Part shown: piece by piece, positions 2,507 to 57,174 of the stretch | Layout: every line of letters begins with the position of its first letter | Position numbering within the stretch: position 1 is the first letter of the stretch | From: Euglena gracilis | Taxonomy: Eukaryota | Length of the DNA stretch: 64,000 nt | Direction: 5' to 3' | Assembly: GCA_039621445.1 (NCBI GenBank) | Contig: CP154954.1 | Span: forward strand, 26,176,954-26,240,953 | Made by a program: the position numbers and the translations under genes | Notes under the pieces: generated by a model | What the model saw: the letters and a program-made list of their open reading frames with translations, nothing else | What the model was told of the DNA's origin: nothing | The model's database searches: none

Positions 2507-3932
2507 ATACATACATACATACATACATACATACATACATACATACATACATACATACATACATACATACATACATACATACATACATACATACATACAT
2601 ACGTACGTACGTACGTACGTACGTACGTACGTACGTACGTACGTACGTACGTACGTACGTACGTACGTACGTACATACATACATACATACATACATACAT
2701 ACATACATACATACATACATACATACATACATACATACATACATACATACATACATACATACATACATACATACATACATACATACATACATACCTACAT
2801 ACATACATACATACATACATACATACATACATACATACATACATACATACATACATACATACATACATACATACATACATACACACACATACATACATAC
2901 ATACATACATACATACATACATACATACATACATACATACATACATACATACATACATACATACATACATACATACATACATACATACATACATACATAC
3001 ATACATACATACATACATACATACATACATACATACATACATACATACATACATACATACATACATACATACATACATACATACATACATACATACATAC
3101 ATACATACATACATACATACATACATACATACATACATACATACATACATACATACATACATACATACATACATACATACATANNTACATACATACATAC
3201 ATACATACATACATACATACATACATACATACATACATACATACATACATACATACATACATACATACATACATACATACATACATACATACATACATAC
3301 ATACATACATACATACATACATACATACATACATACCTACATACATACATACATACATACATACATACATACATACATACATACATACATACATACATAC
3401 ATACATACATACATACATACATACATACATACATACATACATACATACATACATACATACATACCATACATACATACATACATACATACATACATACATA
3501 CATACATACATACATACATACATACATACATACATACATACATACATACATACATACATACATACATACATACATACATACATACATACATACATACATA
3601 CATACACATACATACATACATACATACATACATACATACATACATACATACCTACATACATAAATACATACATACATACATACATACATACCTACATACA
3701 TACATACATACATAACATACATACATACATACATACATACATACATACATACATACATACATACATACATACATACATACATACATACATACATACATAC
3801 ATACATACATACATACATACATACATACATACATACATACATACATACACACATACACGCACGCACGCACGCGCGCGCGCACGCACGCACGCGCGCACGC
3901 ACGCACGCGCGCACGCACGCACGCACGCACGC

Positions 3933-4690: not shown

Positions 4691-6244
4691 CCGTCCACTT
4701 TTATTTCCCCTTGCGACCCCTCCCCCCACCTGTGGTCCCACGCGACCTGGGTGGGGGGGGACCCCTGAAGTTTCCAAACGTCTGCTCTATTACTGCTTTA
4801 TTAAAAGCTGCTCTATTACCCAAATGTGTTCTCCTTTAGGGCCGTCTCAAAGGTCATCCTTTTCCATTCCAGGAGGTATCAGCATGAGACTCAAACAACT
4901 GCTGCTCCGATCCGCTGTTTCGACTTGCCTCTGCATCTTTCACCGCACATGTTTGTTGCTCTGGATTCACAACTCCTCTTCGAATGTGTCTTCTGTGGGC
5001 CTTCCAAAAACACTGCATAACAAGAAAATTTTTTTTGTTGGATTCCCAACAGATTATGCAACCTGGATGATTTGCAATTTTTTGCATAATCAAAATCTTG
5101 AAAATTTGCACACTTTTGGATATTTTTTTCTTAATGAAAATTTTGTGAAAGGCGCATATTTGCATTTTTTTGCATATTTTGCTTTTCTAATGTTGTCCAT
5201 TGTGTATTTACGCAAACAATTTGCTCCACTAGCAGACGACTGGAGGTTGCTTATTTTCTGTTTTTGGACCAATTTCACATAAGCAGTGGTTGCATGATGA
5301 AACACAAGTGGATGCAACTGGGTGAATCAACCATATCACTTCACAAGTTTGCATCACATTTTCTTTTAATGTTGCATTTTTGGAGCAATTGAAATTCTTC
5401 TAAGTCCTCTCCAGTGGAAAAGTGTACATCTCCGGAGAGCTCCTAAAGGAATTTATACACATACTGCATTTTTTTTGCATTTCTTTGTACTTTTTTGCAT
5501 TTTTTTTGCATTGCATATTTTGAGGAGCCTTGTTGCATATTCCCCCCATGTTCCCAAAGTGTTCCCAAAGAATGTGTGGGGGGTAGAAGGGGCACCTTGA
5601 ATTGTGACCTCACAGGCGATATCATTACCATTCAGCAGGTATTCAAAAGGAGTCCAGGGGGGGGGGGGTGCCGTTCGTCGTCCAGGTTTTTTTTCCAGCG
5701 AAGATTTGGCCCCAAAAACATTTTTACTAAGTCCTTTACTGCATGTTTTTTTGTGTCTTCCCCTCGACGATGGCGGATCTTCTGAATTCTTTCCCAAAAT
5801 TTTCAAGAAAGCGAACGCTTCTTCCGGCGCCAGGTGCCAGGATTCGGACTCATCCTGCTAATTTTTGCCAGTCGCAAGACGTAATTAAAGTGATTTTGTG
5901 CAAAAACAGCGAGGGTGAGAGGCAGCATGGATAGGATGAAGAAGGCATCCAACTGCTTTCCGAATTTTAACGCAACTGCTTGAGACACAACCATTGAAAC
6001 CAGAAGAGGCAGGAGTTCAGCAGAATGCCCCCCTATTTTAATATGCGGAGTGCGCACACGTTTTGCCCCGTTGCCTCCGGCCATGCACAAGCCCTTTTCA
6101 TGTGCCTTGGCCAGGTGAACAGCCAGCCGCGCCCCCGGCACTGCACACGCCCATTCATCCCACCACACCGCGCCGCCGCCACCTGTCCTTTCCGGTCTGT
6201 TGGTCCTGTCTGCCCTTTCCTCTCCCCCGGTCTGCCCTCCCCCC

Positions 6245-6454
6245 CAGGGCAGAATGGGAATCGGCCAAACAGCCAGGGTGGTGGGGGGGTCGACCCCCCC
6301 CCCCCACACTACCTCCTCCCCTATTTCCAGGAGCACCAATTGTCTACCCCAAAATTTTTGCCTGCTTCGGCGCCGGATGGAAATCTGTGAAAAAATGCTG
6401 TGGTGGATGGGGAGGGTCGTCCCCCCCCCCACCAGACCTTCCCGTTCTGCCCTG
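6245..6454. mobile_element. Short copy of the same MITE family, 52 nt upstream of the F-box ATG
   Basis: TIR CAGGGCAGAATGGGAA...TTCCCGTTCTGCCCTG; internal similarity to 14995-15645; poly-C flanks. Diverged relatives at ~8564-8797 and ends at 186-203 and 478-494. Confidence 0.8.
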
Positions 6455-6464
6455 CCCCCCCCCC

Positions 6465-6499
6465 CCCCACGGGCCCCGTCCCATTCCCCCGCCGTTCAG
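6465..6499 (+). promoter_or_regulatory. Candidate spliced-leader trans-splice acceptor upstream of the F-box/LRR ATG
   Basis: C-rich pyrimidine tract ending ttcAG (6498-6499), 7 nt before ATG 6507. Euglenozoa use SL trans-splicing; use of this site is inferred. Confidence 0.4.
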
Positions 6500-6506
6500 C
6501 CTCCCA

Positions 6507-6679
6507 ATGGCGGCCGCCCTGCCGGGGGACCTCTGGTGCCTGGTCAGCGACTTTGTGGGCCCCGGCCCCCTCGGGCAGGTGTGCCGCGCCGTGCGCAGCA
6601 GCGTGGGCCGGCGGCACGCGGCGTACCGGGTCACCCCGGCCACCGCGGCACTGCTGCCGGGGCTGCTGGCCCGGGCTGG
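6507..6679 (+). CDS. F-box/LRR gene exon 1 (F-box-like motif)
   Basis: ATG at 6507; [32 protein letters not shown]...; 3' boundary uncertain (6672-6681). Confidence 0.75.
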
Positions 6680-9431
6680 GGGTGGGAGAAGAGGGCCTTT
6701 TCTTTTGGGCGACCCGCAGCGGTCCGTCCCATCCCCGGGGGGGGGGGGGCTCAGGGGAGGCTCGGGGAACCCACCCTTGGGAGGTCATTTTGGCAGTTTT
6801 GCGCATGAGATAGACGAACCGTCCCCTGGGGACCATTCGGACCCCTCCCCCGGGTCACCAAACTCAGAAAAATCTCTGGCGGGGGGGGGTCGCCCATGAC
6901 CTGGTCCAGTCCACCGTCCACGTTGCCAGGGCCCATGGCCCGGCGTTGCCCTCTCCATCTTGGCAGTTGCTTACTAGCAGGCGAACGTTGGCCCCAAATG
7001 CAAGCGCCGCCTGGACCCCACCAAAGTGTCCAGCAGTCCCCTCGCGTCGGCGATTGAGGGGGACAAAACAATCAAGGCGAGGGCTTTGGCGACTGCCTGT
7101 GTATTCCTATGATCGAGGTTTTTTTTTCAATTGTTGTCTCACCTGCACGGTTCTTTTGCATAATTCTTAAACCGAGTCCCCAATTTCTGCCATCAAATGG
7201 AGAATTGCGCCACAAACCCAGCAAGCACTGTTCCACTTTGGCTGGGGTGTCCCCCCCTTGACACCCTTGACGGGGAGGTCGGACCCCCTGCCCTCACCCC
7301 GAGCCCTCCCGTCCCCTCGGGGCCCCGGCCCTCCTCCCAACCCTGGCGCTCCACTGCGCGCGCCTGAAGGACGACGGCGTGGCCGCCCTGGCCGCCCTGG
7401 CCTCCCTCGCCGGCTGCGAGGCCCTCCGCCTGTCCCTCGAGAACTGCTGCTGCACCGACGCCTTCGCGATGGCCCCCCTCCGCCCCATCGCCCAGCTGGC
7501 GCGCCTGACCCTCGCCGCCCCCCGCTCTCCGTGGGGTGGCGTGCTGCCGATTGGTTTCCTCGATTGATGTATGATTATTCACTCATATTATTCACTCATT
7601 TCATTCACTCATTTTCTTTGTTTTGTTGATCTGGTACAAGAAACCAGTGGCTGCCACCTCCCATTTGACTGGTTGGCTCTGGACCATTCTGCCAAAGCAG
7701 CTTCCCCCCCGTGTCCTCCCCCAGTTCCACCCTGATCAAGTCGGGCACTTACCACCCCCCAGCCACCAACTTTGGCTTGGAACCTTGACCCCGGGGCCGA
7801 ACAAGTGCAGCAAACCTACTCCACCCATCAAGGGCTGAATGAGTTTCCTGGAAAGGAAACCCTATGGCTGGCGGTTGGGCAGCCTGCCTTCCCACCCCCC
7901 ACCCCCCAGAACACATCCTTGCCCCCGTCCTCCAGGGAACACTGCCGCCCACACCTGTCTGCCACCCACCCGTAGGGAGCCAGCCACTAACCCCCCCCCC
8001 CCCCGTAATAGAAGCACGGGTGCACTTATAGCGGACCGCTGCCTTTGGCGGCGGGGGAAGCGCTTCTATTTGGACCCCACGTGCGCGATTTTTTTGATTT
8101 CCTTTAGATATCTCATCAAAAAATGGGGGTGCGCTTGTAGCGGACCGCCGCCTTTGGCGGCGGGGGGAGGGTGCGTTTTTATTTGGACCCTGCGTTTGTC
8201 ACGGCCCCTCGCTTCAATTAGGGGGTTTTACCCCATCCAGGGCCAGGGAGTGAAATGGGGGGGGGGTTGCGGGGGGTCTACCCCAGGGCGTGGGGCCGGT
8301 CGACACCCAGGACAGCTACATGGGGCGCCGCGGGGCGACCGCGCTGGCTGCGCTTGGCGCTGGCCCCGCCCTCTCCGGTCGGCCCCCGCGGTGCCCGAGG
8401 TCCGCCTTGCCCTGGGAGTGGAAGACCTTCCAGAAGGGCGGCGGCTGACATGCTACCTGTCTGCTTTGGGACACAAGAGCCACACCTCACACACCATGCT
8501 GTATGGCATTAACTTTTCCCTGTGACCGCCCCCCCCCCCCCCCCCCCCCAGCCCCCCGCCCCCCAGGGCTGAATGGGAATCCTGGATCCTGAATCCCAAT
8601 GGGTGGGAGGGGGTCCCCCCTTCCTTCCCCTTCAGGGCAGACAACCCCTCCCCCCCCACACCAAAATACCTGCGGTGCCGAATGAACTTTGTCTTGCAAA
8701 TTGGTTGGGGTGGTTGTAGTGCCAATTGGTTGGTGGGGGCTCCTCCACCTCCTTGGGGCAGACCCCCTCCCCCTTCCAGGCCTTCCTGTTTTCCCCGGAA
8801 AACGGACAAACTCAGGGCGTTTCATATCTTCAGGATGGGAAGTTTTCAGGCCTTCGTTTCTGGCCAACCTGTGAGTTGGCGTGGGTCGACCACCCCCTGG
8901 GGGTGCTCAAAAAGAAGCCCGGCGTCTCGTTCCTCCGCTGCCGCACCGCGCTGCCCCCCCCCCCCCCCCTGTCCCCCAGCCGTTTGATGGTGGTGGGTTT
9001 GCCCCCCCCCCCCACATCTCACATCTCGGGGGCCGGGGCCACCCTGCGCCTGTACCTGCGGGCAGGCCACCTGGGGCCGGAGGGCCTGCGGCTGGTGGCG
9101 GAGGGCTGGGGCCCGGCGCTGCAGGACCTGGAGCTGGACGTGGGCCAGGGCCGCTGCTGGCCCGGCGTTGGGGGCTGGAGCGCTGTTGGCTGGAAAGGTC
9201 CGAAATATAAACAACATACCATGCCCCCCCCCCCATATAAGACCCCCCCTCGGGAGCCAAAATTCTAGGGGGGGTCTTGTATGGGGGGGTCTTATATGGG
9301 GGGGTCGGTCCCGGCCAAAGGGCCGGCCTTCGGCCGGCCGGGGGGGGGGGGGTCTTATATGGGGGGGCATGGTATGTGTACACATGTGAATATGTATGCA
9401 TGTCTGTCTGTCTGTCTTTTTGTCTGTCTGT

Positions 9432-9484
<53 letters not shown>

Positions 9485-12400
9485 TGCCTGTCTGCCTGCC
9501 TGCCTGTCTATCTGTTTGTCTGTCTGTCTGTATCCATGGGTGGGTGGGTGGGTGGGTGTGGGTGGGTGGGTGGGTGGATGGATGGACGGGCGGACGCGCG
9601 GATCGACGGACAGATGGACAGACAGACAGACGGACGGATGGATGGACGGATGGGTGGACGGACGGATGGATGGATGGATGGATGGATGGATGGATGGATG
9701 GATGGATGGATGGATGGATGGATGGATGGATGGATAGACGGATGCGTGTGGATGTGGATGTGTACAAGTGGCATGCCAGGAGTTGCGGTACTGCAAACGG
9801 AGTCGTCCCCTCAAAGCTTCCAGACGAAGAGGGGGAGGGACTCAATGGGTCATTCATACATTTGTGTCCCCCGTCAAACAAAGCCCCTCCCCCCCCACAG
9901 CTCTGATTTCAACCCACTGGCCTTTTGCCGCCCTCCACTTTTTTTCTCTGTACCCCCCTGGCGGGTATTCAACTGACACGCCGCAGCGTTTGCGGCCTCC
10001 GCCGCGACCGATCCCCGCTGGGCGGGCCCCGCCACGGCGCGGCCCTGCCCCCCACGACAACCAGCTGGGCCCCGCCGGGCTGCTCGGCCTGGCCCCCCTG
10101 GCGCGCTGCCGGGGCCTGCGGGCCCTCTCGCTGAGCCTCGGCAGCAACCAGCTCACCAGCACCGCCCTGCCCGCCCTCGGCGCCCTGGAGTACCTCCCGG
10201 CCCTTGCCTCCCTGCGCCTGGACCTCGCGTCCAGGCAGGGGCCGGCTGGCCTGGCGGGTGGGACAGAACCAGGGTTTTTTTTTTAGTCTTGGACCCCCGG
10301 GGGGGGGGGGAGGGTGGGTGGGTCTGGGGGGGGCCCCCCAGGGGGGGGGATTTACTTTTCGGCACCAAAGGGGCTGAAATTTTTTTGAAAAGGTGCCATT
10401 TTTAGCATTTTTCGCGATTCTTTGGCCATTGGGGAAAAGTGAGTGGGTTCCCCTGGGACCCCCCATGGTGAGTGGGGGGGGGACCCCCGGCCTTACCTCC
10501 CCCCCCCCTTGCCCAACGACCACCCCCTGGTCAGTAAGAGATCTTTTTCCAGGTGACCCTTTTTTCCAGACATTCGCGTTCTTGACCGTGGTCTTGTCTA
10601 ACGACCAACCCGCGATGTTTGGCCAGAACAGCGACCACCCCCCGGTCAGTAGCGATATTTAGCGGTCGTTGGACGGAGGGGTGAGGTAAAAAAAAACCCA
10701 TGGACGGAACGTTGGGGGGAAGCCTGCCCCAGCCCAAAGAAGGCTGAAGGAGGGCGAGCATTGTTCGCGAGGCACGTCTGTTTCTCCCGGTGGGCAACCG
10801 TCACTGAGCCGCCCCGTGGGGGCAACGGCATCGGCGACGCCGCGTTGGCGCACGTGGTCCCCGCCCTGCCCGCCCTGCAGTCCCTCACCCTCGCGCAGTG
10901 CCGGGGTGGAACGGCGAGAGACTGGTTGGCCAAATAATGCGCCCCCCGTCCACCATCCCCAGTGAAAGAAGTCAGAAAAATGCACAAGGGCCCAAACCGG
11001 GTCCCCCCCCCTTCCGAGCACAAGTAAATAACACCGCTGGCCGGGCTATGCCGGGCTGGGCTGGGCTGGGCCACGCCGCCGGTCCGCCAACCGCCTCAAA
11101 CTTTTGCTGCAGCATGACACCATGACACACGTAAAGACCTCAGCACAAAACCTGGTCATTCCAAGGACCAAAAAGTCTACCTGAAAATGATACTAAACAC
11201 CACCAAAAAACGCGAAAAATCCCGAAAAAATCGCGAAAAAGCGTGAATGAGGGTTCGGGCTCCCCAAGCACGAACTACAGGTGAACCCAGGGCAGGGCAA
11301 CCAATGACGGCGTACAAGCCCTCGGTGAAGAAAAATGACTGCAGCCAAGCGATCTGGGTGGGGGGTCGACCCCTCCCCACCAGGCCTTCCTGTACAGGGT
11401 ACCCTTCCCATACACCTCTTTTTCCAGCAGCCAGCAGCTCCCCGCTGTCCGGACCTCCTCCTGGACCCTCTTCTGGACCCCCCAGGGGTCCAGCCAGTAC
11501 TTTTTTTGCAGTCAGCACCCCTTTCCAGCCGGCCTGTAGGCCCCTGGGGTTCTCAAAAAAATTTCTGATGGCAGCCTTATTCACTCAAAATTTCCAAGTT
11601 GTGAATCTTGACCTTGAACGGACAAACGGCCCAAACCCAAACTCGCGGACAAGTCTTCACTGCGTGTTCCAAATCCTCAACAAGCTGGGTTTGCCGCAAA
11701 CCTCCGCTTCCAAATGATGGATACTTTTGCGATAACGGGGAAAGTGATAGTTTATCAGAAATCTCAAGCACATTTTGGACAAGCTTTTTGTGGGACTGCA
11801 CCCGAAGCAATGTTGAGGTTGGCACAGTAACTTCGTGGGCAGAAAGGCCCGGTTTTATGAGTGAACCAACCCAAGCTCCTCTGGTGGAGTGCCCCCACAC
11901 CTGGGGGGGTACCCCTTGCTTGGCCAGAAATTGCTTTGTGATTGAAGCCACCATGTCTGCACTTATGGCTTTATATCTGGGTTTTAATGAAATTAGAAGG
12001 GGTTCCCAGGTATCACGAATAAACGTGTGGCAGCCACATGGGACATCATCAAAATGAAAAGGACTTATTTGCGGACACTGGGGAATGGAAACAACTCTCT
12101 CCCACTTGTGAAATTTTTGCCCTTTACACTTAATTTTGATGTAGGGTGCCCTTCCCAAAACACTTGTGGTGCGTTTGAATTGTGCCATGTCTGAGGATCT
12201 GTACAAACATAAGATCCGTGAACAGAAATGAGTTGTGTACGCAATGTACAAATATCAGTGGGCATAGGTGCTTTGCCAGCCCCAAGAGGTTTGGGAGGGG
12301 ATCCCAAAATGCCTCATACTTCTCTAACTTTTGGTTCCAAAGCTTCTTGAATGGGACAAGGTGTGGAATCGTAGCCCACCAAACCCGGGAATCAAACGCA

Positions 12401-15400
12401 TTGCACTGTATGCAGTACGGGCTTGGGCCTTGGAATTTGTAATTATTGTATTAAGGCCGCATTGTATTAAGGCTGTATGCAATTATTGTATTTTGGCCTG
12501 GCAGGCGCAGTGCCAGCCACTTGGTATATGCTGGCTTCAGGCGGGGTACAATGCACGTCTCGCCCTGTGATTTTCGCTTTTCCCATTTCCAAAGAAAATC
12601 AGTAACAAAAAATTCAGCTTCCCTTTGACACTTTCACTTCAGGGACAGTTGGCAGTGTTGATGCCATTCATTGAGATATTCAGTATTTCTGGCAGGTTGT
12701 GTTGCTGACACACCCTTGTGCAGAGCACAAAGGCAAGGGAAGGGTTGAGACCAAGGTCTCTTGATCAGTACTGTTTGAGGTCCGTCCCAAGCTTCTGCAA
12801 CTATTTACAAATTTACAAAAGCACCCAAAATTCTTAAAGGGAGATTTGCCCCCCCCCCCCCAAATAAGACCGGGGGTCCATTTCATGGGTCGGTTGCTGG
12901 AAAGGCCCGAGGGGGGGTCTTATTCATGGGGGGGGGGTCCATTTTATGGATTTTTGCTGGAAAAATTGCTGGAAAAAAATGAAGAAAAGACCCCCCAAAA
13001 TGTCCAAAATAGACCCCCCAAAATACCAATTTTTGAAAAATTGGGCGCTTCGCGCCAGACAAATTGGAGAAAATATGCTGAATTGTGTGAAAACTGTCCC
13101 AAAATTACAGATTTACCCCCCCAAAATGTCCCATTTTTCAAAAATCCGGCGCTTTGCGCCAGCAGGGGGGTCTTATTTATGGGGGGGGGCATTTCATATT
13201 TTTTTGCTCGGACCGGCCAGGGGGGGGGGTCTTATTTTGGGGGGTTTAGGAACCAAAAGTCTTAATTCAGATCGCTGAGAGTCACACGAGATTCTTAGCT
13301 TCGCCAGTTGACCTAAGCTTTCACATAGTGCTGTATACAGCCTGGCCGTAGCCAGATTCTAGGGCGTAGCCTTTCTCTGGTAGACAGAGCCATGGCATCA
13401 TGGCTGCCTGGTACACATCCCCCTCCCAGGGTTAAGCCTGATTTTCTTTTGGACCAGGCCAGTCGGGATGCCAGGCATAGTCCCGTGTGGGACGGGCATC
13501 ATTGAGAACCAGATCATGCCTCGAAGGTTTTGGACTGCAAACACACAAAATAATTATGACACGCATGCTGTGCTTTGTGTATATTCTTACTAACAGTGTG
13601 GTGTCTTTGCAATCTGTAATCTGCAATTTAGTTGATGGTGGCTCTCCACTGTCAACTTGTTGTCCACCGAACTTGAAAAACTTCGCGGGGGGGGGGACGT
13701 CGAACATGACGATGGACGGCACATTTGTGCTGCAGACTTCGCTCATTATGTGGGACTACACCCAAAGAGAAAGTTTAGCTGTGGCTGATGTCCAGTGTTG
13801 GAAACCCTCAGCGTCTGAGCTGAAGTGCTCACCCATATCTGGGTCTTGTACAAGGGTCATTTCCGTTGAACGCAGGTCTAGAGTACCCTTGTCAGGATTC
13901 TCCATGTCCATCCTTGGGAAAACCCAACTTCTCATTTCTTCAATCTCCTGCGATAGCCTGATGTGCGCGTGGGATGTGCAGGCACATTGGGTCACGTGTG
14001 GTTTCAGAATGGTACACACTCATTCTGAACAAGTCTCGTAACCTGCTTATCTGCCTTTCTGGCAGATGACCTTTTTCCAGTCGTTGTCATTGAAAAGTTG
14101 GGGCAACCGCCCCCCTTTTGTGCATTCCTGAAAGTCAAAGTCGATTCTGCAACAGTCAAAAGCTTCTGCTTTCTTTAAAATCTTGAATTGGTTCATTTGA
14201 CATCTCGTCTTGCAGTCTCATTTCTGGGTGCGATCTTGAGGTTTCCGCCATCTGCGGGCAACCAAATGTCTGCCTGTAGGCAGTTGGCACAGAAAACTGG
14301 GACATCACGGTCCCGTTCTTCTTCCATCCAGCGGAAGTTGTTGAGTTGCCGCCATGAAAGGATGCAGCAGTAGTTTGGATAAAAACGTTGTGGTGAAATG
14401 TTTTCCGTTTGCTGTCCGCGTAACAGACATGCAAAGCACCCATGTTGTTATGGACATTGTGGCAGGCCATGCAGAGCCACCTTATTTGGCCATTCGGCCT
14501 ATAATCAAAAAGGAATGATTCCCCAAACACCCTTGTGGAGGTTGACGAGGTTACAATGTAGAGGTTGGCTTGGCTGGTGAGGTTGTGGGCACAATTGGTG
14601 CCAGTTTTGGGTACCAGCCGGATCCAGCCTGGCAGTTGGCAGGCCCCTCCCCTGGACCCCCCACCGCCCACAGGGTCCAGCTCCCTGGCAGGTCCAGGGC
14701 TGCACAGGAATCCCTGCAAACCTATGGGTGACAAGAGAGCGGGTGTTCGGGTTTGAGTCACCCCAGGGCTGAACAAAAATCTGGGTGGATGTGGAGGTCT
14801 CCCCAGACCTTTCCGTTTTTTTTCCTGGTGTACAGATTTGAAAGCCGAATTTTTCCAGAGGGAATTGCCCCTGAATTCAGCTTGGAGGTATTTTTTTTTC
14901 TGGCACAAAGCTGTGGTGGCACCAGGGATCCCAATTATCCAACTATGGACCTTGGGGTGGGTAGGGTAGGCTGGTAGATGGGTCTGCCGGACCCCAGAGC
15001 AGAATGGGAATCGACCGAACAGCCAGGTGGTAGGGTGGTGGGTGGGGGGGGGTCGACCCTCCCCACCCCCTGCATGGTGGCTGGGGGGGGGTCGACCACC
15101 CCCCCCCCCCACCACCTCTTCCCGTATTTCCGGGAGCACCAGTTTTTGGACCTGAAAAAAATTTTCCGGCGCCTTCGGTGCCAGGTGTTTTTTTTTGACC
15201 CACTTTGGGACCCATATAGGGGGTCCCCCAAAAAAACCACCCAAAGCCCCATTTTTTTCACACCTTCCAAAAATTCAACATTTTCTCAAAATTTGGGTTT
15301 TGACAGGTTTTTGAAGCAAAAAATGCCATTGAAAGTCCAAAAAATTTCAAAGAGAAAAAATTGTCAGTAAAATTTGACTGTGCCAGAATTGGGTCCACTT

Positions 15401-18400
15401 TTTTTGACCTTCGTTTTTTTCACCCCCGTCATAAAAACTACCAATTTTAACCCTGAATTTTTTGAGATTTTTTTGTGAAAAATGTGGGTTTTCATCAAAA
15501 AATCATATGTTTTGGGTTCATTTTTCAAAAAAATTCTCCAAAAATTTCCTGGCCAAAATCTTCGTTTTCCCGAAATCGGTGAAAATGCTGTGGTGGGTGG
15601 GGGGGGTCGACCCCCCCCCCCACCAGGCCTTCCCGTTTTGCCCTGCCGGACCCCCTCCCCTGAGGGGTCCCCCAAGGGCTTTGTGCGTCCCGTCGGAGGC
15701 GGGGGTTCGGTATCTTTCGTTTCTTTGTGCCGAAAATTTTCTTTACCCCCAAATTGACCCCCGGACTCCCTCCCCCTGCGGTGGGGGCACCCAGGGTAGG
15801 TGGGGGGACCCTACCCTCCGGTCTTAAAAAGTCCTTGTGGAGGGGTCGACCCCTCCCTGGGTGTGGGGGTCACCTCTCCACCAGGTTATCCTACCCCCCC
15901 CCCCCCGGGAAACTGTCATGCCCGAGAACCTGTTAGGGTCCCGCCCGGGAAACTGTCAGGGTCCCCGGTACTGGCCAACCTGTCAGTATAGGAAGTTGTC
16001 AGGGTCCCCGGTACCGGCCAACCTGTCAGGGTCATTTTTCATTGACTTTCCCTTAAAATGCCCTACCGGGAAACTGTCAGGGTCCCGCCCGGGAAACTGT
16101 CAGGGTCCCTGGTACCGGCCAACCTGTCATGATAGGAAGTTGCCAGGGTCCCCGGTACTGGCCAACCTGTCAGGTGACAGTTTCCCGGGGGGGGGGGTAG
16201 GTACACATCACTGGTCGCCCCCAAATTTCCTTGAAAGAAAATAAATACAAAGACTAAAATTAAGGATGAAATAATGGCCAAATGTTAGCGGCGAATTAGA
16301 TAGATTGTCGCAGAGAAACCCAAAATCCTTGGGTTTGACACCACAACATCCTGTTGACGGAATCAGGGGGGCTCGAGCTTGAGCGTTCGAACTTGAGCCT
16401 CCTCCAACGTCCTTAAGCCTCCCTCAGGAGGGTTTATCTTAAACTCCTCCTCGAACGACCTTGAGCGACCTTGAGCGACGTTTGAGAAAGCTTTAGAGGT
16501 TTCCCATACGTACTTGCATACAGGTATTTTCTGCGAAACGTTACCCTCAAAAAAGGGCATGGGCAACATAAAGGAGTTCGCACACACAGGGCACACATTA
16601 CACAAGGGATTTTGTTATTTTGTGGCCCCTCAGAACAGTTGACTACAAAAGGACTTGCACAATAAAATGGAGTTACGCACACAGGGCTCATGCAAAACAA
16701 GGGACTCTGGCCCCCCCCCCGAACAGTTACATAAAAGAAAAGGACTTCGACTCCTCGTACCGTAACCCTGCCCTCGAATCAGGGGCTTCAACCCCCAGGG
16801 GAAGGGGGAGTGTGATACAGCACGTCCCACTCCAAAACCAAATGCCACCCGGGACCCAACATGGACGATTCCAAGGAATTAGGATGGGTACAGCCCAGCC
16901 AAGACCAGGGCATCGCTTAAGCCTCTGGGGGAGAGGGCAGCCAGCCAACAGCCCTTTTCCAGCCTTGGACCTCCTGTCCACCATCAACGATTTTTCTCAT
17001 TGTCCAGCCGCTCTTTGGGCGGCTGGACAGCAACATATTTTGTGCGGGGGGGGGGGGTGCAAAAAGTGGCCGAATATGGGGAAAAATGGGTTGGAAATGG
17101 CTGCCCAAATCATCATCAAATTATGGGTCAGAACTGGATTTTGTTTTTTGCACAGTTGGCAGTTTTTTTTAGATTTTTTTTCCAGTTTCGATTTTTTTTT
17201 GGCACCTGGTTTGACCTTGGTTGGTCCTAGTTCCAGCCGGGGGACCCCCATGGGGGAGGTCGCCTTTTTCCAGACAGTTCAATTTTCCAGTCTCTGCACT
17301 GGACCCCCGGGGGGTTCCAAAACAACGCCCTGACCAAGGCCCAAACAAAACCCAGGGGTGGGGCTGAGCAGGACCCCCCCCCCCCCACCCCACCGGGGTG
17401 TTGACAAGAGGCCTGGTCGGCAGGAGTGCCAGCCCGGCACTGGCGGCAACCTGTGGGGCAATGACGTCGGGGAGGCGGGGGCAGCGGCGCTGGCAGCAAA
17501 GGCCGCCCAGTTGCCCTCCCTGACCGTGCTGGACCTGGACTTGGGCCACGGGCCACGCTGCATCTATCCCCCCCCCCCCCCGTGCAGTTTGGAGGTGACC
17601 CCAGTTAGAACGACCCTCGGCCTCGGGTAATGTCCCCCCTCCCCTTGCAAGACAATTGGAATCTCGACCTAAACCAGACAAACACTGTGTGGTGACGCTG
17701 CCATTCATGCAATCGGGGGCGGGCAGGTAAACACAAATCACGATCTGATGATGGGTTTCTGAATCAGCAATACTGACTCACAAGAACATGCCCTTAACAG
17801 ATTGATTTTTTCTTCAACTTTAAGTTTTTGGAATTTCACTGCGGAAAACGGGAAAGGAATTTGCGACAGCATCTCACTACTGTCTGATTAATGTCTCTCC
17901 ACTTTTCTTTGATATTGCTTGATCCCCCGCCCCTCGGAGGGTTCCCAGCAGCAACCCTGAATGACAGCCTAGGCTTTGACAGTGAGGCGACCCCAACAAA
18001 TCATGCACATTGTACGCACACAACAACACTGACCCACCAGTGCAAACATACGTGGATGCAAGCGTGGGCAGAACCGGATGGAAGGAGCAGCGACTTTGGG
18101 TCCAGGCTGTTGCCCCCTCGCCCCTGCGTGCTGCTGAGGGCGTTGATCGGACCAGTGGCTCAACCCAGTTGGTGCCGCCTGGAATTCCAGGCGTAGCCGA
18201 CCCTCCTCCCCTCAACCACATCCGACTCCCCCTACGGGGTTTGGGCTTGTGACTGGGAGTGCGCGGGCACTCGGTCAAAGATAAAAGCCTTTTTTTTGAC
18301 AAATTTCTCCCACGACCAGGCAGGCATGACCCCCCCCCCCCCAGGAGTGTGGCCAGGCACCCCATGGCACTCCGGGTTGGGCAGATAACGCGGTCGGCGG

Positions 18401-21224
18401 GGGGGGGGGGGTAACACAACGGGAGTACTGCCGAGCGCCGACCATCTGCGGTCGTGAGACTTTTCGGCCTTCCGAGATGTGGGGCTGGCCACAGCCTGGC
18501 CAGGCCTCCTGCCGCTGTTTGGAAACCCGTCCACGTCTCTGCTGTGCGCGGTGGCTTGCCCCCTCCCCCCTGTGCAGGCCCTTCCGTTACGCCATATTGC
18601 CGAGGCATGTGCCTGCCTCACATGATGTAAGCACTTCCCAAGCCTTCTGTCGTGCCAATTTTGCTCAGTGGTGCATGGGTGCAGCTTGCACCTCAGCACC
18701 GTGTGGCAATTGAGTCCAACCCGACACACAGTCCTCCTGTTCGAGGTGCGGCGCAGCCTCAGGGTTGTCTCGCCATCTCCCCCTCTGCCCAAATGCCCCC
18801 CCCCCCCGTCCATCGCTCCCCTCCGGGGGGGGGGGTAACGTATCTGCTGCCCTCAGAAGTGGGCAGCAGGGGGGGATTATGCAAGTTGCATAGTTTGCAT
18901 TTTGTTTGCATAATCAATAATCTTGAAAATTTGCGCTTTTTTGCATAATTTGCATTATGATTTTTTTTGCACAATGAGTAGTTTGTGAAAAGTCTCATTT
19001 TTTTTTGGCATAGTTTGCCTGTTTTATTTTGTTCAGGCATTTGCACAGGCGTATCGCTCCAATTTCAAACAACTGGACGTTGCATATTTCACATTTTTGG
19101 ACCAATTTCACATAATCAGTAGTTGCATGATGATATACGAGTGGGCTCGGAGAACCAACCCCATCACTTAACAAGTTTGTGTCACATTTTCCTTTAATGT
19201 TGCCAGTTTTTGAGCAATTTTTTCCAAGTCCTCCGCAGTGGAAAAGTGTGCTCCTGAAGGAATTGATACACGACTTGCACTTTTTTGCGTTTTTTTGCAT
19301 TGCATATTCCGAGGAGCCTTGTTGCATCCCCCCCCCCCTGTGTGGGTGGAAGCCCTGCCCCCCCCCCCCTCCATACAGCCACCGGGGCCGGGCCGTGCGA
19401 GGGGCTCTCGCCCGCCTTGCCCTGCGGCTGGAGGACAACGGCGTGGACGCCTCGGGGCTGGCCCTGGGCCCGGCCCTCGCCGCCGGGTCCGTCACACACC
19501 TGGCGCTGTACCTGGCCAGGCGTGGCTGCCCTCCCCCATTTGCTGTCCTCCCCCGACCCTTTTTTTTGTTGTCAACCCCTGGCCCCAGGACACCCGCAAA
19601 GTGGTTAACAACAGCCCCTTTTGCACACTTTTTTTTGTCATTTTGGAGCTCTTTCTGGACGCTCGCAACGTTCCAAACCTCCACCTCACTCCAGGGGACC
19701 TTCCAGAACACACAGCCTGGCTCAAGGGTTCGCAGCACCCCTGGCTGGACTGCAGCAAGTCCAAATTAATTTGGCTACTGGAAATCCTAGTGGACCCCCC
19801 CCCTGGGTGGTCTGCCAGCAGGGCCAGCCAGTGGAATTTTTTTCCCAGTGGTTTGCGTGAAGCGCCGAAGTTTTTTCTGGAACCCCAAAACTCAAAAAGA
19901 CGTCATTTCCACCTCGGCGTGCAGCGTGGTGGAATTTATTTCCCGGTGCTGGCAAAATGGCAAGCCGGTGGGCCCACCCCCGGGGTCCTTAGGTAATGGC
20001 CTACACACAACACACCCCTTTTCTCATCAAAAGGAATGCTGACCCCCCCCTCGCCCACGACGGGAGAATAGCTTGGGAGGCAAACGTCCTGCGGCCTCAG
20101 GGAACGAACACTTTTTGGGTGGGAGTTCCAGCAAGGCCTGTGTTTGGGGTACAACTTTGTGATGGACAACGGGGCGGAGGCGCTGGCGGCGCTGCGGACC
20201 GCCGGCCTGCAGTCCCTTGTGCTGAGCCTGCCGGGCAACTTCATCACCGACCGGGGGGCTGCGCGCGGCGACCCCCCTGCCGCTCTGCCTCGGGAGAAAC
20301 CATCTCTCAATGGGCCTTATTTTCTGGGCAAAGGTTTGATGGTGCTGGATTCCTGGACGTTGGGAATCATGCTGCCCACTGCTCGCTGAACACCAGAAGT
20401 CAGAACGGAAATTTGATTTGTGGTGATTTCCTTTCTTTGCAGTAAGCAGGTGTGATTGTCGATTTTTTTTAAAGTTTCGTGACCCGGGGGAGGGGGTCCA
20501 GGCCGAGCCTCCCCCCTGCCAGGGTGGGGGTCGGGCTGAGCGGGGTTTTCCTCTGTTCTCGTTGGGAAACGTCAAATTTTTTTGACCCCAAGGTTCACTC
20601 CCTAAAGTGGTCCCCCAAGCCCCCCCAAGGGGCGGGTAGGTTGGCCCGGACCCCCCCCCTCCACAAAATTGTCTGGCCAGATGTTCATTCCAAGTTCTGG
20701 TGCACCAAATTTGGACACCCGAGGATGCGCAGGATTGTGAGAGCAATCTCTCTGGAGGATCTGTAATGGGAAAAGAGTTGACCAGGCTGCAGTTTGAGGT
20801 GTGGCCGACTCCATCCGACTGGTCTCGGAGTGACATATGAGGGGACTGCTTGAACGTGGGCATATGGCTCTCGGAGACCTCCCTCCACCGAAGTCAGTTA
20901 AATTTAACCTCAATTTCAGCCTGGGTTGGACGAAAGGGTAATTTTTTGATGGGACATCTCCCACACGTTTCCAACTGTTTTAAAACGGCACCGCGACCCC
21001 AAAATCCCCGCCCCCCCACCCAGTTTTGGGTGGTTGATGTTGTTGTTTCGTTGAACAGCGTTGCAAAAGTCACGGCACAGGGACTGATCGGGGGCGGGCC
21101 AGCAGGGCGGATGCCGAGGTCGGCACTAAACACCTTCTGCGAGGTGGCGGTGCGGATGCAGGTGCGGCTGGATGTGGCGGACAACCGGTTAAGCGCCAAC
21201 GTGCAGCACCAGCTGCCTCGGGTG
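6507..21224 (+). CDS. F-box-like/leucine-rich-repeat (RNI-like) protein, at least 11 exons, 3' end unresolved
   Basis: Manually assembled exons 6507-6679, 7345-7513, 8302-8376, 9041-9142, 10053-10232, 10824-10892, 17448-17549, 18072-18119, 19410-19513, 20146-20262, 21122-21224 total 1242 nt and stay in frame. The N-terminus [26 protein letters not shown] is F-box-like. LxxLxLxLxxNxL repeats are completed across junctions (LRLDLAS|NGIG, LQSLTL|NLWGND, LELDV|HDNQLG). Codons are GC3-rich. Junctions 1, 7 and 8 are ambiguous. Confidence 0.85.
7345..7513 (+). CDS. F-box/LRR gene exon 2
   Basis: [56 protein letters not shown]; 5' boundary could be as early as ~7311. Confidence 0.8.
8302..8376 (+). 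CDS. F-box/LRR gene exon 3
   Basis: [25 protein letters not shown]; both flanking introns have end-pairing stems in the +4/-6 register. Confidence 0.8.
9041..9142 (+). CDS. F-box/LRR gene exon 4
   Basis: [34 protein letters not shown]. Confidence 0.85.
9219..9372. mobile_element. Palindromic TA-flanked MITE (in intron 4)
   Basis: TA|CCATGCCCC..ATATAAGACCCC ... GGGTCTTATATGGGG..GCATGG|TA; related ataagacc motifs at ~12850-13240. Confidence 0.8.
9400..9740 (+). repeat. (TGTC)/(TGCC)/(TGGG)/(TGGA)n compound microsatellite in intron 4
   Basis: Read directly. Confidence 0.95.
10053..10232 (+). CDS. F-box/LRR gene exon 5
   Basis: [60 protein letters not shown], about two LRR units. Confidence 0.9.
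10824..10892 (+). CDS. F-box/LRR gene exon 6
   Basis: [23 protein letters not shown]. Confidence 0.85.
11800..12470 (-). pseudogene. Tyrosine-recombinase (DIRS-like retroelement) relic inside intron 6
   Basis: Minus-strand fragments [40 protein letters not shown] and WGHSTRGA (HxxR motif), frameshifted. Confidence 0.7.
14995..15645. mobile_element. hAT-type MITE, 651 bp, 8-bp TSD (inside intron 6)
   Basis: TIR CAGAGCAGAATGGGAA...TTCCCGTTTTGCCCTG; perfect TSD ccggaccc at 14987-94 and 15646-53. Confidence 0.9.
15891..16200. mobile_element. MITE with poly-C/G TIRs and internal aactgtcagggtccc repeats
   Basis: CTACCCC..GGGAAACTGTCA ... TGACAGTTTCCCGGG..GTAG; degenerate relative at ~21250-21385. 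Confidence 0.7.
17448..17549 (+). CDS. F-box/LRR gene exon 7
   Basis: [34 protein letters not shown]. Confidence 0.85.
18072..18119 (+). CDS. F-box/LRR gene exon 8 (short, boundaries ambiguous)
   Basis: [16 protein letters not shown] supplies the LRR Asn. Upstream gatgcaagcgtgg pairs with ccacgctgcatc after exon 7. An alternative in-frame end is 18110. Confidence 0.6.
18867..19340. mobile_element. Dispersed non-autonomous element with CAG(G)n...(C)nTG ends (in intron 8)
   Basis: Similar copies at ~5060-5550, ~54286-55130 and partially ~59835-59965; ttgca-rich interior; ends resemble those of the 35084-39355 hAT element. Confidence 0.65.
19410..19513 (+). CDS. F-box/LRR gene exon 9
   Basis: [34 protein letters not shown](L). 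Confidence 0.85.
20146..20262 (+). CDS. F-box/LRR gene exon 10
   Basis: [38 protein letters not shown](A). Confidence 0.9.
21122..21224 (+). CDS. F-box/LRR gene exon 11
   Basis: [34 protein letters not shown], followed by gcaCAG, a probable next intron start. Confidence 0.75.
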
Positions 21225-23307
21225 GCACAGACTGGAGAGACCTCGCCCCCTCCCCCCCAGGAGACTCTCAACCCTGGGAGCTTGCCAGAGTCCCTGGTAC
21301 TGGCCAAGCTGTCCGTAATTTGTTAGGATCCCTGATACTGGCCAACCTGTCGGCAGTGTGATAGTTTCCTGGCCAGGGGGGGGGACGGGACAAGAAGCCT
21401 TAGTGCAACCACGGGGGGTGGTGACCCCCCCATTTTTTTTGGGTCCATTGCTGGAAACCTCTGGTGAGGTGCCATTGTTGGATTTTTTCCTCTTGACCGT
21501 CCTGTGGACCAAAAAAGTTTACCTCCCCCCACCTTGTCCAAGACACATTCCCCCCGTGGGTCAACGGCACTTCCTGGAACGTGATTTTTTCTCTCATGTC
21601 CGCCAACATTTCTAAGGAAATTTAGCCAAGGCACTTGAAATGCCCATCTTCTTCCTTGCCATGTATTCTTATGAATTTGGTGATTTGGTGCAATATGAGA
21701 GGTCAAATGGTGCAATTGTGGAGGCGATGGTTATTGGGCCATCAAACACATTGTTTTGGTATCGTGCCGTTGACACAGTGTGCTGTTGACCCCCTTGTGC
21801 CCGTGCATTGGCATGTCCTGGACAGGGGGGGGTCCAAACAAAATTTTTTGGCACTTCATTCAATTCTGCAATTTGGTTCATATTGAGAGATTTCAAATGT
21901 TTGTTGGGTCTCGAAAACCCAGAAAGCAGGAAATTCACAATTTCACCCCCCCCCCCCCAACTGGGCCCTCAGTGACGATAATCACTAACTTTGTCAAAGA
22001 TTGCCCAGGTTATCAGGCTATGGAGCAGGGGCAAAGATTGTGCTAGGGGACCTCACAAGTAAAGTAAACTACCCTATGCCTTCTGTATTGCTTGACCTGT
22101 CCTCTTGCAATATTCCCAATGTCTGCCCTGAGACATCCCCCCTGTAAAAGCACCCACGAGGAAAACATTCAGGGCAATGCCTGCATGAGTTTCAGTTCAC
22201 TTTTTTTTTGCTCACTGCTTCGTGCAAGCCCTGCCCACAGTGAGAGAAGAAATGGACGAGAAATTCCTCAAAGAAAGGTTAAATAGTTATGCAGCATTCT
22301 TATACCAGGTTGCTTGTTTGTGGAAACGTGCATATTAAGCGTCCAGCATGCAGCCCCCCCCCCCCCCCCAGCAGATTTCAATGACCTTCCGTTTGTGTTC
22401 TCCCGAGAAAAAGCAGCCTCCTTCCCCTCGAACCCCCTCTATTTGCACCTTTCTGACCTCATGCATCCCATCTCTCAGCAGCATCACCCATTCATGTTTA
22501 CACATTCACACCGGCAACAGCACCGCCATCCCCCCTTTCTGCCGTGACACGTTCTTCTTTCGTTGCCAGGATGACCACCTTCATCCACCATCATCCGCAG
22601 ATGAGGCTCCACCAGGCTTAACAAAATTTGACCCCACCCCTGGGGGGCTCCAGCCAGCCAGCAGTCTTTTTCCAGCAAGCAGCCTTTTTCCAGCCCCGGA
22701 CCCCCCATCAACGAGATTTATTTATTTCCAGTCGCCCTTCGGGGGACTGGACTGTAACGGATTTTTCTCGCTTTCGGGGTGCAGAAATGGGTCAAAATGG
22801 GTGAGAATGGGCCGGAAAAGGGCTGCCCAGGACATTTTTGGGTCAAATTTTTTTTTGCAAGCATTGACTTGGCAGGGAAATTTGAACCAAAACTCTGCAT
22901 ATTTCCTAATAACCCTGCAAAATAGTACAAAACCACAAAATAAAAAAAATAATGCGAATTGATGCCTTGGGCAGATACACATTAATGCACATTATACACA
23001 TGCATATTTGGTCACCGTAAGGGGAGGAGATGCAAAACAACGAAAGTCCACTGCCTCATCTCCGCCACATGATAATCCCTGGATCAAGTTTTCTTGGTTC
23101 TTTAGACGCCCATACGAGATCAAGGATGGGATGTTTTTCTGTGAAGCTGGCAATGACGGTTTCTTTGGCACATGCAACGTAGGGTCATATGATTTATGCA
23201 GTGAACATTTGGCAATTGGTCACTTTTGTTTGCCCAAATTTTGGCAGCTCATTAAAAACAAGGTCAAAAAAACTTTTTTTTAAAAAAACTTTCACCTCTC
23301 CCATGAG

Positions 23308-56388: not shown

Positions 56389-56420
<32 letters not shown>

Positions 56421-56810
56421 TGTATGTATGTATGTATGTATGTATGTATGTATGTATGTATGTATGTATGTATGTATGTATGTATGTATGTATGTATGTA
56501 TGTATGTATGTATGTATGTATGTATGTATGTATGTATGTATGTATGTATGTATGTATGTATGTATGTATGTATGTATGTATGTATGTATGTATGTATGTA
56601 TGTCTGTATGTATGCATGCATGCATGCATGCATGCATGCATGCATGTATGTATGTATGTATGTATGTATGTATGTATGTATGTATGTATGTATGTATGTA
56701 TGTATGTATGTATGTATGTATGTATGTATGTATGTATGTATGTATGTATGTATGTATGTATGTATGTATGTATGTATGTATGTATGTGTGTGTATGTATA
56801 TGTATGTATG

Positions 56811-56843
<33 letters not shown>

Positions 56844-57142
56844 GTGTGTATGTATGTATGTATGTATGTATGTATGTATGTATGTATGTATGTATGTCTG
56901 TATGTATGTATGTATGTATGTATGTATGTCTGTATGTATGTATGTATGTATGTATGTATGTATGTATGTATGTATGTATGTATGTATGTATGTATGTATG
57001 TATGTATGTATGTATGTATGTATGTATGTATGTATGTATGTATGTATGTATGTCTGTATGTATGTATGTATGTATGTATGTATGTATGTATGTATGTATG
57101 TATGTATGTATGTATGTATGTCTGTATGTATGTATGTATATG

Positions 57143-57174
<32 letters not shown>

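What the first reader, a model, noticed from the sequence alone, without database searches (positions are those of the whole stretch)
6507..21224. F-box/LRR gene built with non-GT-AG, end-paired introns
The LRR register fixes most junctions independently of splice signals. None of the ten introns as modelled is GT-AG, although a GT at 6682 lies near the ambiguous first junction. Stems in the +4/-6 register: 7514-8301 (GCCCC.CGC/GCG.GGGGC), 8377-9040 (CGGCCCCCG/CGGGGGCCG), 9143-10052 (CAGGGCCGC/GCGGCCCTG), 10233-10823 (bulged), 10893-17447 (CAGTGCCGGG/CCCGGCACTG), 19514-20145 (CAGGC/GCCTG), 20263-21121 (CGGCG/TGCCG). Most junctions are pyrimidine|purine. Stem sequences differ while pairing is kept, so structure rather than sequence appears to be the signal. 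Standard gene finders and the ORF track miss this gene.
Basis: partly seen in the sequence, partly recalled or inferred. Interest (0 to 1): 0.8.

Follow-up and report, generated by a model that had tools for sequence, protein, structure and literature searches.

The report
Euglena-type nonconventional introns, LRR gene

Summary
Cognate intron ends pair far better than non-cognate ends: 0 of 20,000 permutations reach the observed mean.

I laid RNA on 9750-21500 only. It shows all four listed introns in that stretch to the base (10233-10823, 10893-17447, 19514-20145, 20263-21121) and the acceptor at 10053.

The gene model needs three corrections:
- One of those three introns (18100-18503) reads as GT-AG and also carries the CAG/CTG pairing motif.
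- A further intron (21215-22410) leads to a last exon with its stop at 22454-22456.

The +4..+6/-8..-6 pairing, 3-nt and 5-nt spacers and purine exon start are the published euglenid nonconventional splicing code (PMC4770533 abstract; PMC12501133 Results). Six of 11 introns carry the CDG/CH'G triplets.

The protein has LRR units every 27-30 residues and LRR_6-like features. An F-box is not supported by Pfam.

Verdict: a real feature of an already known kind. Interest is low.

The parts
6507..6674 (+). Exon 1, with ATG at 6507. Its 3' end is tentative.
   Evidence: An open frame runs from the ATG. It was chosen because an 11-bp stem sits in the +4/-6 register with 7321 and the join is in frame. 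The junction is slidable by about +/-2, as read from the sequence.
6675..7321 (+). Intron 1. A tentative nonconventional candidate.
   Evidence: It is one of 15 top-scoring in-frame pairs. G-run/C-run pairing gives many alternatives. The in-frame GT(6682)..AG(7277) pair is not excluded. No RNA test was made.
7322..7513 (+). Exon 2 (LRR units).
   Evidence: Open frame and LRR register.
7514..8301 (+). Intron 2. Nonconventional, stem GCCCCCCGC/GCGTGGGGC, no CDG/CH'G triplet.
   Evidence: The 29-residue unit spacing read across the junction supports it (my reading of the protein printed).
8302..8376 (+). Exon 3.
   Evidence: Its translation aligns with the other LRR units.
8377..9040 (+). Intron 3. 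Nonconventional: N3-CGG ... CCG-N5 then A.
   Evidence: 9-bp stem and a signature hit.
9041..9142 (+). Exon 4.
   Evidence: Frame and LRR spacing of 28 and 29 residues.
9143..10052 (+). Intron 4. Nonconventional: N3-CAG ... CTG-N5, next exon starts with C. Holds a 350-nt compound microsatellite.
   Evidence: 9-bp stem. Acceptor fixed at 10053 by contigs from X6 and X11. Microsatellite at 9393-9744.
10053..10232 (+). Exon 5 (two LRR units).
   Evidence: Covered by contigs. Weak LRR_6 hit, E 0.31. Atlas neighbour at 0.97 in an LRR_6 cluster.
10233..10823 (+). Intron 5. Nonconventional, bulged stem.
   Evidence: Joint 10231>10823 skipping 591 in X24 (1 read), X6 and X11. Three registers are possible.
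10824..10892 (+). Exon 6.
   Evidence: Bounded by two RNA joints.
10893..17447 (+). Intron 6. 6,555 nt, nonconventional, full signature N3-CAG ... CTG-N5 then A, 10-bp stem.
   Evidence: Joint 10891>17447 in X24 (2 reads), X6 and X11. Stem and signature.
17448..17549 (+). Exon 7.
   Evidence: Contig pieces. LRR_6 hit, E 0.058.
17550..18071 (+). Intron 7. GG..AG, not slidable, 7-bp stem in a +4/-5 register.
   Evidence: Joint in 4 of 4 runs. Register.
18072..18099 (+). Micro-exon 8 (27-28 nt, depending on register).
   Evidence: Bounded by joints seen in 4 of 4 runs. Keeps the frame open.
18100..18503 (+). Intron 8. Hybrid: GT..AG ends plus N3-CAG ... CTG-N5 then G.
   Evidence: Joint 18098>18503, listed as 'GT..AG (cut +1)', in 4 of 4 runs. 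Signature hit in the same register.
18504..18528 (+). Micro-exon 9 (25-26 nt).
   Evidence: joints. Frame.
18529..19402 (+). Intron 9. GT..GG, 4-bp CACG/CGTG stem in the +4/-6 register.
   Evidence: Joint in 4 of 4 runs. Stem.
19403..19513 (+). Exon 10.
   Evidence: Contig pieces in X6 and X11.
19514..20145 (+). Intron 10. Nonconventional, full signature CAG/CTG.
   Evidence: Joint in X21 (1 read), X6 and X11. Signature.
20146..20262 (+). Exon 11.
   Evidence: Contig piece.
20263..21121 (+). Intron 11. Nonconventional, full signature CGG/CCG.
   Evidence: Joint in X21 (6 reads), X6 (2 contigs) and X11. Signature.
21122..21214 (+). Exon 12.
   Evidence: Contig piece 21121-21214 in X11.
21215..22410 (+). 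Intron 12. GC..AA, not slidable, TCGGG/CCCGA stem in a +4/-5 register.
   Evidence: One X11 contig runs on behind 21214 with 29 letters that equal 22411-22439. Register.
22411..22456 (+). Coding part of the last exon, with stop TGA at 22454-22456.

Best explanation
This is a nuclear gene of a euglenid, most likely a Euglena species; the organism is inferred, not named by any search. It encodes a protein of about 435 residues made of ribonuclease-inhibitor-like (LRR_6-type) leucine-rich repeats.

The gene has 13 exons. Most of its 12 introns are nonconventional introns. In the pre-mRNA, bases +4 onward of the intron pair with bases -6 (sometimes -5) backward, usually starting with CAG/CTG or CGG/CCG. 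The stem brings the two junctions together. The cuts fall a fixed 3 nt before the stem on the 5' side and 5-6 nt after it on the 3' side, in front of a purine.

Shown here: the stems, their register, precise excision in RNA, and an open frame.
Taken from the literature: the ruler-like rule, and the fact that the machinery is still unidentified.
Inferred: that this mechanism acts on these particular introns.
For: RNA joints:
- Seven in-gene joints are each seen in 3 or 4 of 4 runs from 4 studies.
- An eighth junction comes from one contig whose 29 further letters match 22411-22439.
- In X24, the one run where the mates fall on one side, all junction reads have the first mate on the - strand. 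That fits a + strand RNA if the library is of the usual stranded kind, which the record does not state.

Frame: the joined frame is open from 10053 to the stop. With the tentative upstream exons it gives 1308 nt, or 435 codons plus the stop.

Pairing: cognate ends average 6.7 of 8 paired positions against 4.05 for non-cognate ends, with 0 of 20,000 permutations reaching this.

Signature:
- N3-CDG/CH'G-N5 is present in 6 of 11 introns. Five of those six also have the purine exon start.
- The first intron base is a purine in 11 of 11 introns.

Literature:
- Conserved pairing at +4,+5,+6/-8,-7,-6, mostly CAG/CTG (PMC4770533, abstract).
- Code 5'-N3CDG-/-CH'GN5-6|R, found in 61.2% of nonconventional introns, with 0.8% hybrid introns (PMC12501133, abstract and Results read).
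- CCAGG at +3..+7 and CCTG at -9..-6 in E. gracilis (PMC11170887, sections 6 and 10 read).

Protein:
- LRR starts lie 27-30 residues apart across the junctions.
- Exon 5's nearest Atlas cluster scores 0.97 and is 95% LRR_6, with Euglenozoa the commonest phylum.
Against: - Only the acceptor at 10053 is fixed. Intron 1 is a choice among many in-frame candidates.
- Five of 11 introns (2, 5, 7, 9, 12) lack the CDG/CH'G triplets. Introns 7 and 12 pair in a +4/-5 register.
- Intron 4 is followed by C, not a purine.
- No Pfam family reaches its cut-off on single exons: LRR_6 scores 13.9 and 11.6 bits against 23.4. The joined protein could not be given to Pfam.
- No call names the organism.
- One X6 contig joins 10175 to 15096, with a 21-letter side. 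This is not part of the model and is unexplained. It is probably a repeat or a paralogue.
Confidence: 0.93

Rival explanations
1. The non-GT-AG joints are artefacts. Reverse transcriptase or the assembler jumps between short direct repeats or across stems, so no such splicing happens in the cell.
For: Seven of 11 introns are slidable, meaning they are flanked by 1-3 repeated letters. The raw reads also show obvious artefacts at poly-G/poly-C, such as the 10299/17374 opposite-strand joints in X21.
Against: - The same seven joints recur in 3-4 of 4 runs from 4 studies.
- Introns 7 and 12 have no repeated letter at all.
- All joints together keep one frame open and keep the 27-30 residue LRR period.
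- Knock-in genetics shows such introns are removed in vivo (PMC12501133, Results).
Confidence: 0.02
2. The introns are removed by the ordinary spliceosome, or a variant of it, using non-canonical sites. The terminal stem only helps to bring the sites together. On this view they are not a separate, spliceosome-independent pathway.
For: Intron 8 has both GT-AG ends and the CAG/CTG signature, intron 9 starts with GT and intron 7 ends with AG. The literature calls the machinery unknown, and says verification of spliceosome independence is still needed (PMC11170887, section 10).
Against: - Ten of 11 introns cannot be read as GT/GC-AG in any allowed register.
- Nonconventional introns lack U1 complementarity and are removed later than conventional ones (PMC6221363, abstract).
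- Hybrid introns are thought to use the noncanonical machinery (PMC12501133, Results).

Confidence: 0.12
3. Intron 12 is retained and the frame runs on from 21214 to a stop near 21326.
For: The frame 20841-21326 is open past 21214. Some contig pieces lie on 21317-21423.
Against: The sequence at 21283-21392 is a dispersed repeat also found at 15954-16205, so those pieces may come from elsewhere. The one contig that crosses 21214 is spliced to 22411.
Confidence: 0.1

Closest known systems
Nonconventional introns of euglenids (Euglena gracilis, E. agilis; splicing code 5'-N3CDG-/-CH'GN5-6|R)
   Same: - Ends are not GT-AG.
- Pairing starts at +4/-6, with CAG/CTG or CGG/CCG triplets.
- Spacers are 3 nt and 5 nt, with a purine after the intron.
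- Junctions are slidable.
- These introns sit alongside conventional or hybrid introns in one gene.
- RNA confirms excision.
(PMC12501133, PMC4770533, PMC11170887.)
   Different: Nothing differs in kind. Five of 11 introns lack the triplets and two use a 4-nt 3' spacer. That falls inside the 38.8% of nonconventional introns that the published code leaves unexplained. At 6,555 nt, intron 6 is longer than the longest nonconventional intron in the E. gracilis table of PMC11170887 (5,931 nt).
Intermediate / hybrid introns of euglenids
   Same: Intron 18100-18503 has GT..AG ends and also the N3-CAG/CTG-N5|G signature, with 8 of 8 positions paired. PMC12501133 (Results) reports such introns as 0.8% of all introns, and PMC4770533 discusses them.
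   Different: The junction is slidable over 3 registers, so the GT-AG reading is only one of three.
Ribonuclease-inhibitor-like LRR proteins (Pfam LRR_6, PF13516)
   Same: Units of 27-30 residues follow the pattern L..L.L..N.(I/L/V)G..GA.ALA. There are weak LRR_6 hits on two exons. The Atlas neighbours are LRR_6 clusters. The one database relative, P0001, matches the joined model at 56.6 bits in a one-sequence search and has LRR_6 at E 0.00056.
   Different: No Pfam score reaches the gathering cut-off. The repeat class name rests partly on my recall of LRR classes.
F-box/LRR (FBXL-type) proteins
   Same: An N-terminal L-P-x-D-L-W ... V-C-R pattern stands in front of the LRRs. An Atlas cluster that is 100% F-box sits at rank 2 with score 0.90.
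   Different: There is no Pfam F-box or F-box-like match at E <= 10, no PDB match and no relatives. The motif resemblance is recalled, not tested.

Membership tests
Euglenid nonconventional introns | Borders are not GT/GC-AG | tested here: met
   Ten of 11 introns have no GT/GC-AG reading in any allowed register. Intron 8 has one.
Euglenid nonconventional introns | Intron ends base-pair at +4,+5,+6 / -8,-7,-6 and bring the junctions together | tested here: met
   At least 6 of 8 positions pair in the +4/-6 register in 10 of 11 introns. Intron 7 pairs in +4/-5. Zero of 20,000 permutations of the ends reach the observed mean.
Euglenid nonconventional introns | CDG / CH'G triplets with a 3-nt 5' spacer and a 5-6-nt 3' spacer | tested here: inconclusive
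   Present in 6 of 11 introns. The published share is 61.2% (PMC12501133), so an intron that lacks the triplets is not thereby excluded from the class.
Euglenid nonconventional introns | [quoted passage not shown] | tested here: met
   Ten of 11. Intron 4 is followed by C.
Euglenid nonconventional introns | Precise removal from RNA | tested here: met
   Seven joints in 3-4 of 4 runs, one further junction from a contig, and one acceptor only.
Euglenid nonconventional introns | Host is a euglenid (or diplonemid) | tested here: inconclusive
   The runs carry only a coded species label. The commonest phylum of the nearest Atlas cluster is Euglenozoa. No whole genome is held for this window.
Euglenid nonconventional introns | Removal by machinery other than the standard spliceosome | not testable with these tools
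   The machinery is unknown in the literature too (PMC6221363 abstract; PMC11170887 section 10).
Pfam LRR_6 (PF13516) | Score at or above the gathering cut-off (23.4 bits) | tested here: not met
   The best single exons score 13.9 and 11.6 bits, and the other exons give none. Each intron cuts a repeat, and the joined protein could not be submitted.
Pfam LRR_6 (PF13516) | Tandem units of about 28-29 residues with an L..L.L..N core | tested here: met
   Nine unit starts are spaced 27-30 residues apart. Consensus.
F-box (PF00646 / PF12937) | Profile match to the F-box domain of about 48 residues | tested here: not met
   No family at E <= 10 for 6507-6674 or 6507-6734. The earlier try was one base out of frame.

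The most novel reading that the evidence does not exclude
Introns 5, 7, 9 and 12 are RNA-confirmed here, and intron 2 is not. All five lack the CDG/CH'G triplets of the published code, and three of them pair in a +4/-5 or bulged register. They may mark a second rule: a stem at the right distance from both junctions is enough without the triplet. That would extend the code to part of the 38.8% of nonconventional introns it now leaves out.
Probability: 0.25. Interest if true: 0.3.

Novelty: already known. Interest (0 to 1): 0.15.

Why it matters
It matters mostly as a check on the scan. RNA bears out all four of its junctions that could be tested.

For biology it adds one worked example. A single gene combines signature, non-signature and hybrid introns, two adjacent micro-exons of 25-28 nt, and a 6.5-kb nonconventional intron.

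For annotation it is a reminder that GT-AG-based gene finders will miss or mis-model genes in this genome.

Tried and rejected
- Run search: no RNA holder listed. The holders kept as contigs are only guessed to be RNA. The raw-read RNA runs were added by species label.
- Read laying was allowed once. I gave it 9750-21500, which leaves out 6300-9749, because the tool turns away stretches with a long repeat and 9393-9744 is a 350-nt microsatellite. Introns 1-3 and the donor of intron 4 therefore stay untested.
- Pfam on single exons. Three of the 10 references (exons 1, 11, 12) were one base out of frame. They were redone in frame, still with no F-box or LRR family. Exon 2 gave one chance-level hit, LptM_cons at E 4.
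- PDB by sequence. Exon 1 gave one chance-level hit at E 3.9. Exon 5 gave nine hits with E from 0.28 to 5.4, five of them plant LRR receptor kinases.
- A profile of ten of the gene's own repeat units, searched against PDB, found only an engineered repeat protein at E 0.0012. This was not informative.
- Protein database. Exon 5, longer proteins: 1 hit, P0001, at 29% identity, and no transcript-derived copy of this protein. Exon 1, longer proteins: none of 319 candidates reached E <= 0.1.
- Rfam on the whole window gave 0 matches.
- tblastn of the model against the window found no further LRR exon or paralogue. That includes the 6.5-kb intron.
- Introns compared with each other share only short dispersed repeats. 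The periodic intron placement is therefore not explained by recent duplication of exon-plus-intron units.
- GT at 6682: the only in-frame GT..AG pair using it ends at 7277, behind a purine-rich stretch. It is not excluded, but I rank it below 6675-7321.
- The 544 contig letters upstream of 10053 would reach 6500 under my model. That is just behind an AG that could be a spliced-leader acceptor. This is arithmetic and inference only, not evidence.
Full report
What is there.

The region 6.5-22.5 kb is GC-rich (0.55-0.64). It holds 33 runs of 10 or more identical bases between 6000 and 22000, almost all of them C or G.

On the + strand, a chain of short open stretches encodes leucine-rich repeat units. 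They are 9-10 bp for 8377-9040, 9143-10052 and 10893-17447. For 7514-8301, 8 of 9 positions pair. They are 5 bp for 19514-20145 and 20263-21121. For 10233-10823 the pairing needs a one-base bulge.

Is it more than chance?

I took the 11 introns 2-12 and counted pairs at the 8 positions from +4/-6 inward.
- Cognate ends pair at a mean 6.7 of 8.
- The 110 non-cognate 5'/3' combinations of the same introns pair at 4.05.
- 5000 random position pairs from the same region pair at 3.06.
- 0 of 20,000 permutations of the 3' ends reach the observed mean. For duplex energy, 1 of 20,000 does.
- Seven of 11 introns have at least 7 of 8 paired, against 1.1% of random pairs.

RNA.

The run search listed no holder on record as RNA, but it added raw-read RNA runs with the same coded species label. 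I laid two of these (X21, X24) and two contig runs guessed to be RNA (X6, X11). The four runs come from four studies.

I laid them on 9750-21500. I left out 6300-9749 because only one lay was allowed and 9393-9744 is a 350-nt compound microsatellite, which the tool says it turns away.

Of the 15 joints the table lists, seven lie in the gene.

| Joint | Skips (nt) | Runs showing it |
|---|---|---|
| 10231>10823 | 591 | 3 of 4 |
| 10891>17447 | 6555 | 3 of 4 |
| 17549>18072 | 522 | 4 of 4 |
| 18098>18503 | 404 | 4 of 4 |
| 18528>19403 | 874 | 4 of 4 |
| 19512>20145 | 632 | 3 of 4 |
| 20261>21121 | 859 | 3 of 4 |

The tool's ambiguity values (2, 1, 0, 2, 1, 3, 2 letters) equal the slide ranges I computed from the sequence. 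Within those ranges the four reader introns in the stretch are confirmed to the base.

Other RNA observations:
- Two contigs (629 and 681 letters) begin their match exactly at 10053, with 524 and 544 letters further upstream. This fixes the acceptor of 9143-10052.
- In X24, all junction reads have the first mate on the - strand. That fits a + strand RNA if the library is of the usual stranded kind, which the record does not state.
- The other eight listed joints lie in repeats or poly-G/C. One X6 contig joining 10175 to 15096 (21-letter side) touches exon 5 and remains unexplained.

Corrections to the model.

1. They surround two micro-exons that together make 53 nt. These micro-exons keep the frame and supply a proper LRR segment.
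2. The middle one reads GT..AG when slid by one base. In that same register it has N3-CAG ... CTG-N5 followed by G, which makes it a hybrid intron.
3. One X11 contig runs on behind 21214 with 29 letters that equal 22411-22439. A twelfth intron (21215-22410, GC..AA, not slidable) therefore leads to a last exon with its stop at 22454-22456.
4. With a tentative intron 1 at 6675-7321, the CDS is 1308 nt, or 435 codons plus the stop. Intron 1 is not settled. Poly-G/poly-C pairing gives many in-frame candidates, and GT(6682)..AG(7277) is also in frame.

What it is.

The register and motifs are those of the nonconventional introns of euglenids.
- The abstract of PMC4770533 names pairing at +4,+5,+6/-8,-7,-6, mostly CAG/CTG, as the most conserved element, and a pressure to keep a purine at the 5' end.
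- PMC11170887 (sections 6 and 10 read) reports CCAGG at +3..+7, CCTG at -9..-6, and terminal pairing for E. gracilis.
- PMC12501133 (abstract and all of Results read) defines by knock-in genetics the code 5'-N3CDG-/-CH'GN5-6|R. It finds the code in 61.2% of nonconventional introns, shows that pairing beyond the triplet is also needed, and reports 0.8% hybrid introns and many slidable ones.

Here 6 of 11 introns carry the triplets at the right spacing, and 5 of those 6 also have the purine. All 11 start with a purine, and 10 of 11 are followed by one. The five without triplets still pair, two of them in a +4/-5 register.

No call names the organism. The nearest Atlas cluster for exon 5 has Euglenozoa as its commonest phylum.

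The protein.

LRR unit starts fall at residues 144, 172, 201, 230, 257, 287, 316, 344 and 372, spaced 27-30 apart. This period runs across both the RNA-confirmed junctions and the untested ones. It is the only support for introns 2-4 beyond their stems.

- Ten units taken by reference align to the consensus xxNxxxxxGxxALAALxxxPxLxxLxLxL.
- Pfam on single exons gives only LRR_6 at E 0.058 and 0.31, below the cut-off.
- The Atlas puts exon 5 at 0.97, with 171 shared features, next to a cluster that is 95% LRR_6.
- The only database relative, P0001, matches the joined model at 56.6 bits in a one-sequence search. It has LRR_6 itself at E 0.00056, also below the cut-off.

The F-box is not supported. 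There is no Pfam family at E <= 10 in the right frame, nothing in PDB and no relatives. The only hint is a rank-2 Atlas neighbour at 0.90, which by the tool's own figures is a lead at best.

Other checks.

- tblastn of the model finds no further LRR exon in the window.
- The introns are not copies of one another.
- Rfam finds nothing in the window.

Verdict.

It rediscovers a splicing class known for decades and recently decoded genome-wide, so novelty is 'already known' and interest is low.

The boldest reading left open is that this gene's triplet-less, RNA-confirmed introns mark a stem-only variant of the code.

Noticed in passing
window 24864-46726: A 22-nt satellite (unit GGACTGAAAACGCACATCCACC) fills most of about 22 kb downstream of the gene. 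It lies in blocks of alternating orientation, and the units also show 44- and 66-nt higher-order periods.
   Followed up: no
window 2507-3857 and 56391-58071: Two very long tetranucleotide arrays: (ATAC) with 338 copies and (TATG) with 425 copies. They explain the low-GC, strongly skewed bins. An NN gap sits at 3184-3185 inside the first array.
   Followed up: partly
window 9393-9744 (inside intron 4): A compound microsatellite that runs from (TGTC/TGCC)n through (TGGG)n to (GGAC/GGAT)n.
   Followed up: no
window 14846-16805 (inside intron 6), also 21283-21392: A dispersed repeat containing a 109-nt direct duplication and 23-nt units. RNA-run depth over it is far above that of the gene (up to 94 in X6), with many loose ends. 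It is therefore transcribed from many loci or sits in abundant transcripts. At 16414-16805, depth appears only in the two contig runs.
   Followed up: partly
window 18875-19336 (inside intron 9) versus 5052-5547 and 54286-54489: Another dispersed repeat, 71% identical over 514 nt to a copy upstream of the gene.
   Followed up: no
window 10893-17447: At 6,555 nt, this RNA-confirmed nonconventional intron is longer than the maxima listed for nonconventional introns in the E. gracilis table of PMC11170887 (4,682 and 5,931 nt). That table was built on a draft assembly.
   Followed up: no
window 19879-20068 and 20234-20350: Low-depth X6 contigs (depth 2-3) lie inside intron 10 and across the donor of intron 11. 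They are either unspliced pre-mRNA or DNA in the run.
   Followed up: no
introns 2, 4, 5, 6 and 7 relative to the LRR unit: Five of the 12 introns fall just after the L.L.L strand and before the N position of a repeat, but not at identical residues. The intron bodies are unrelated. Whether this reflects a preferred insertion target was not tested.
   Followed up: partly
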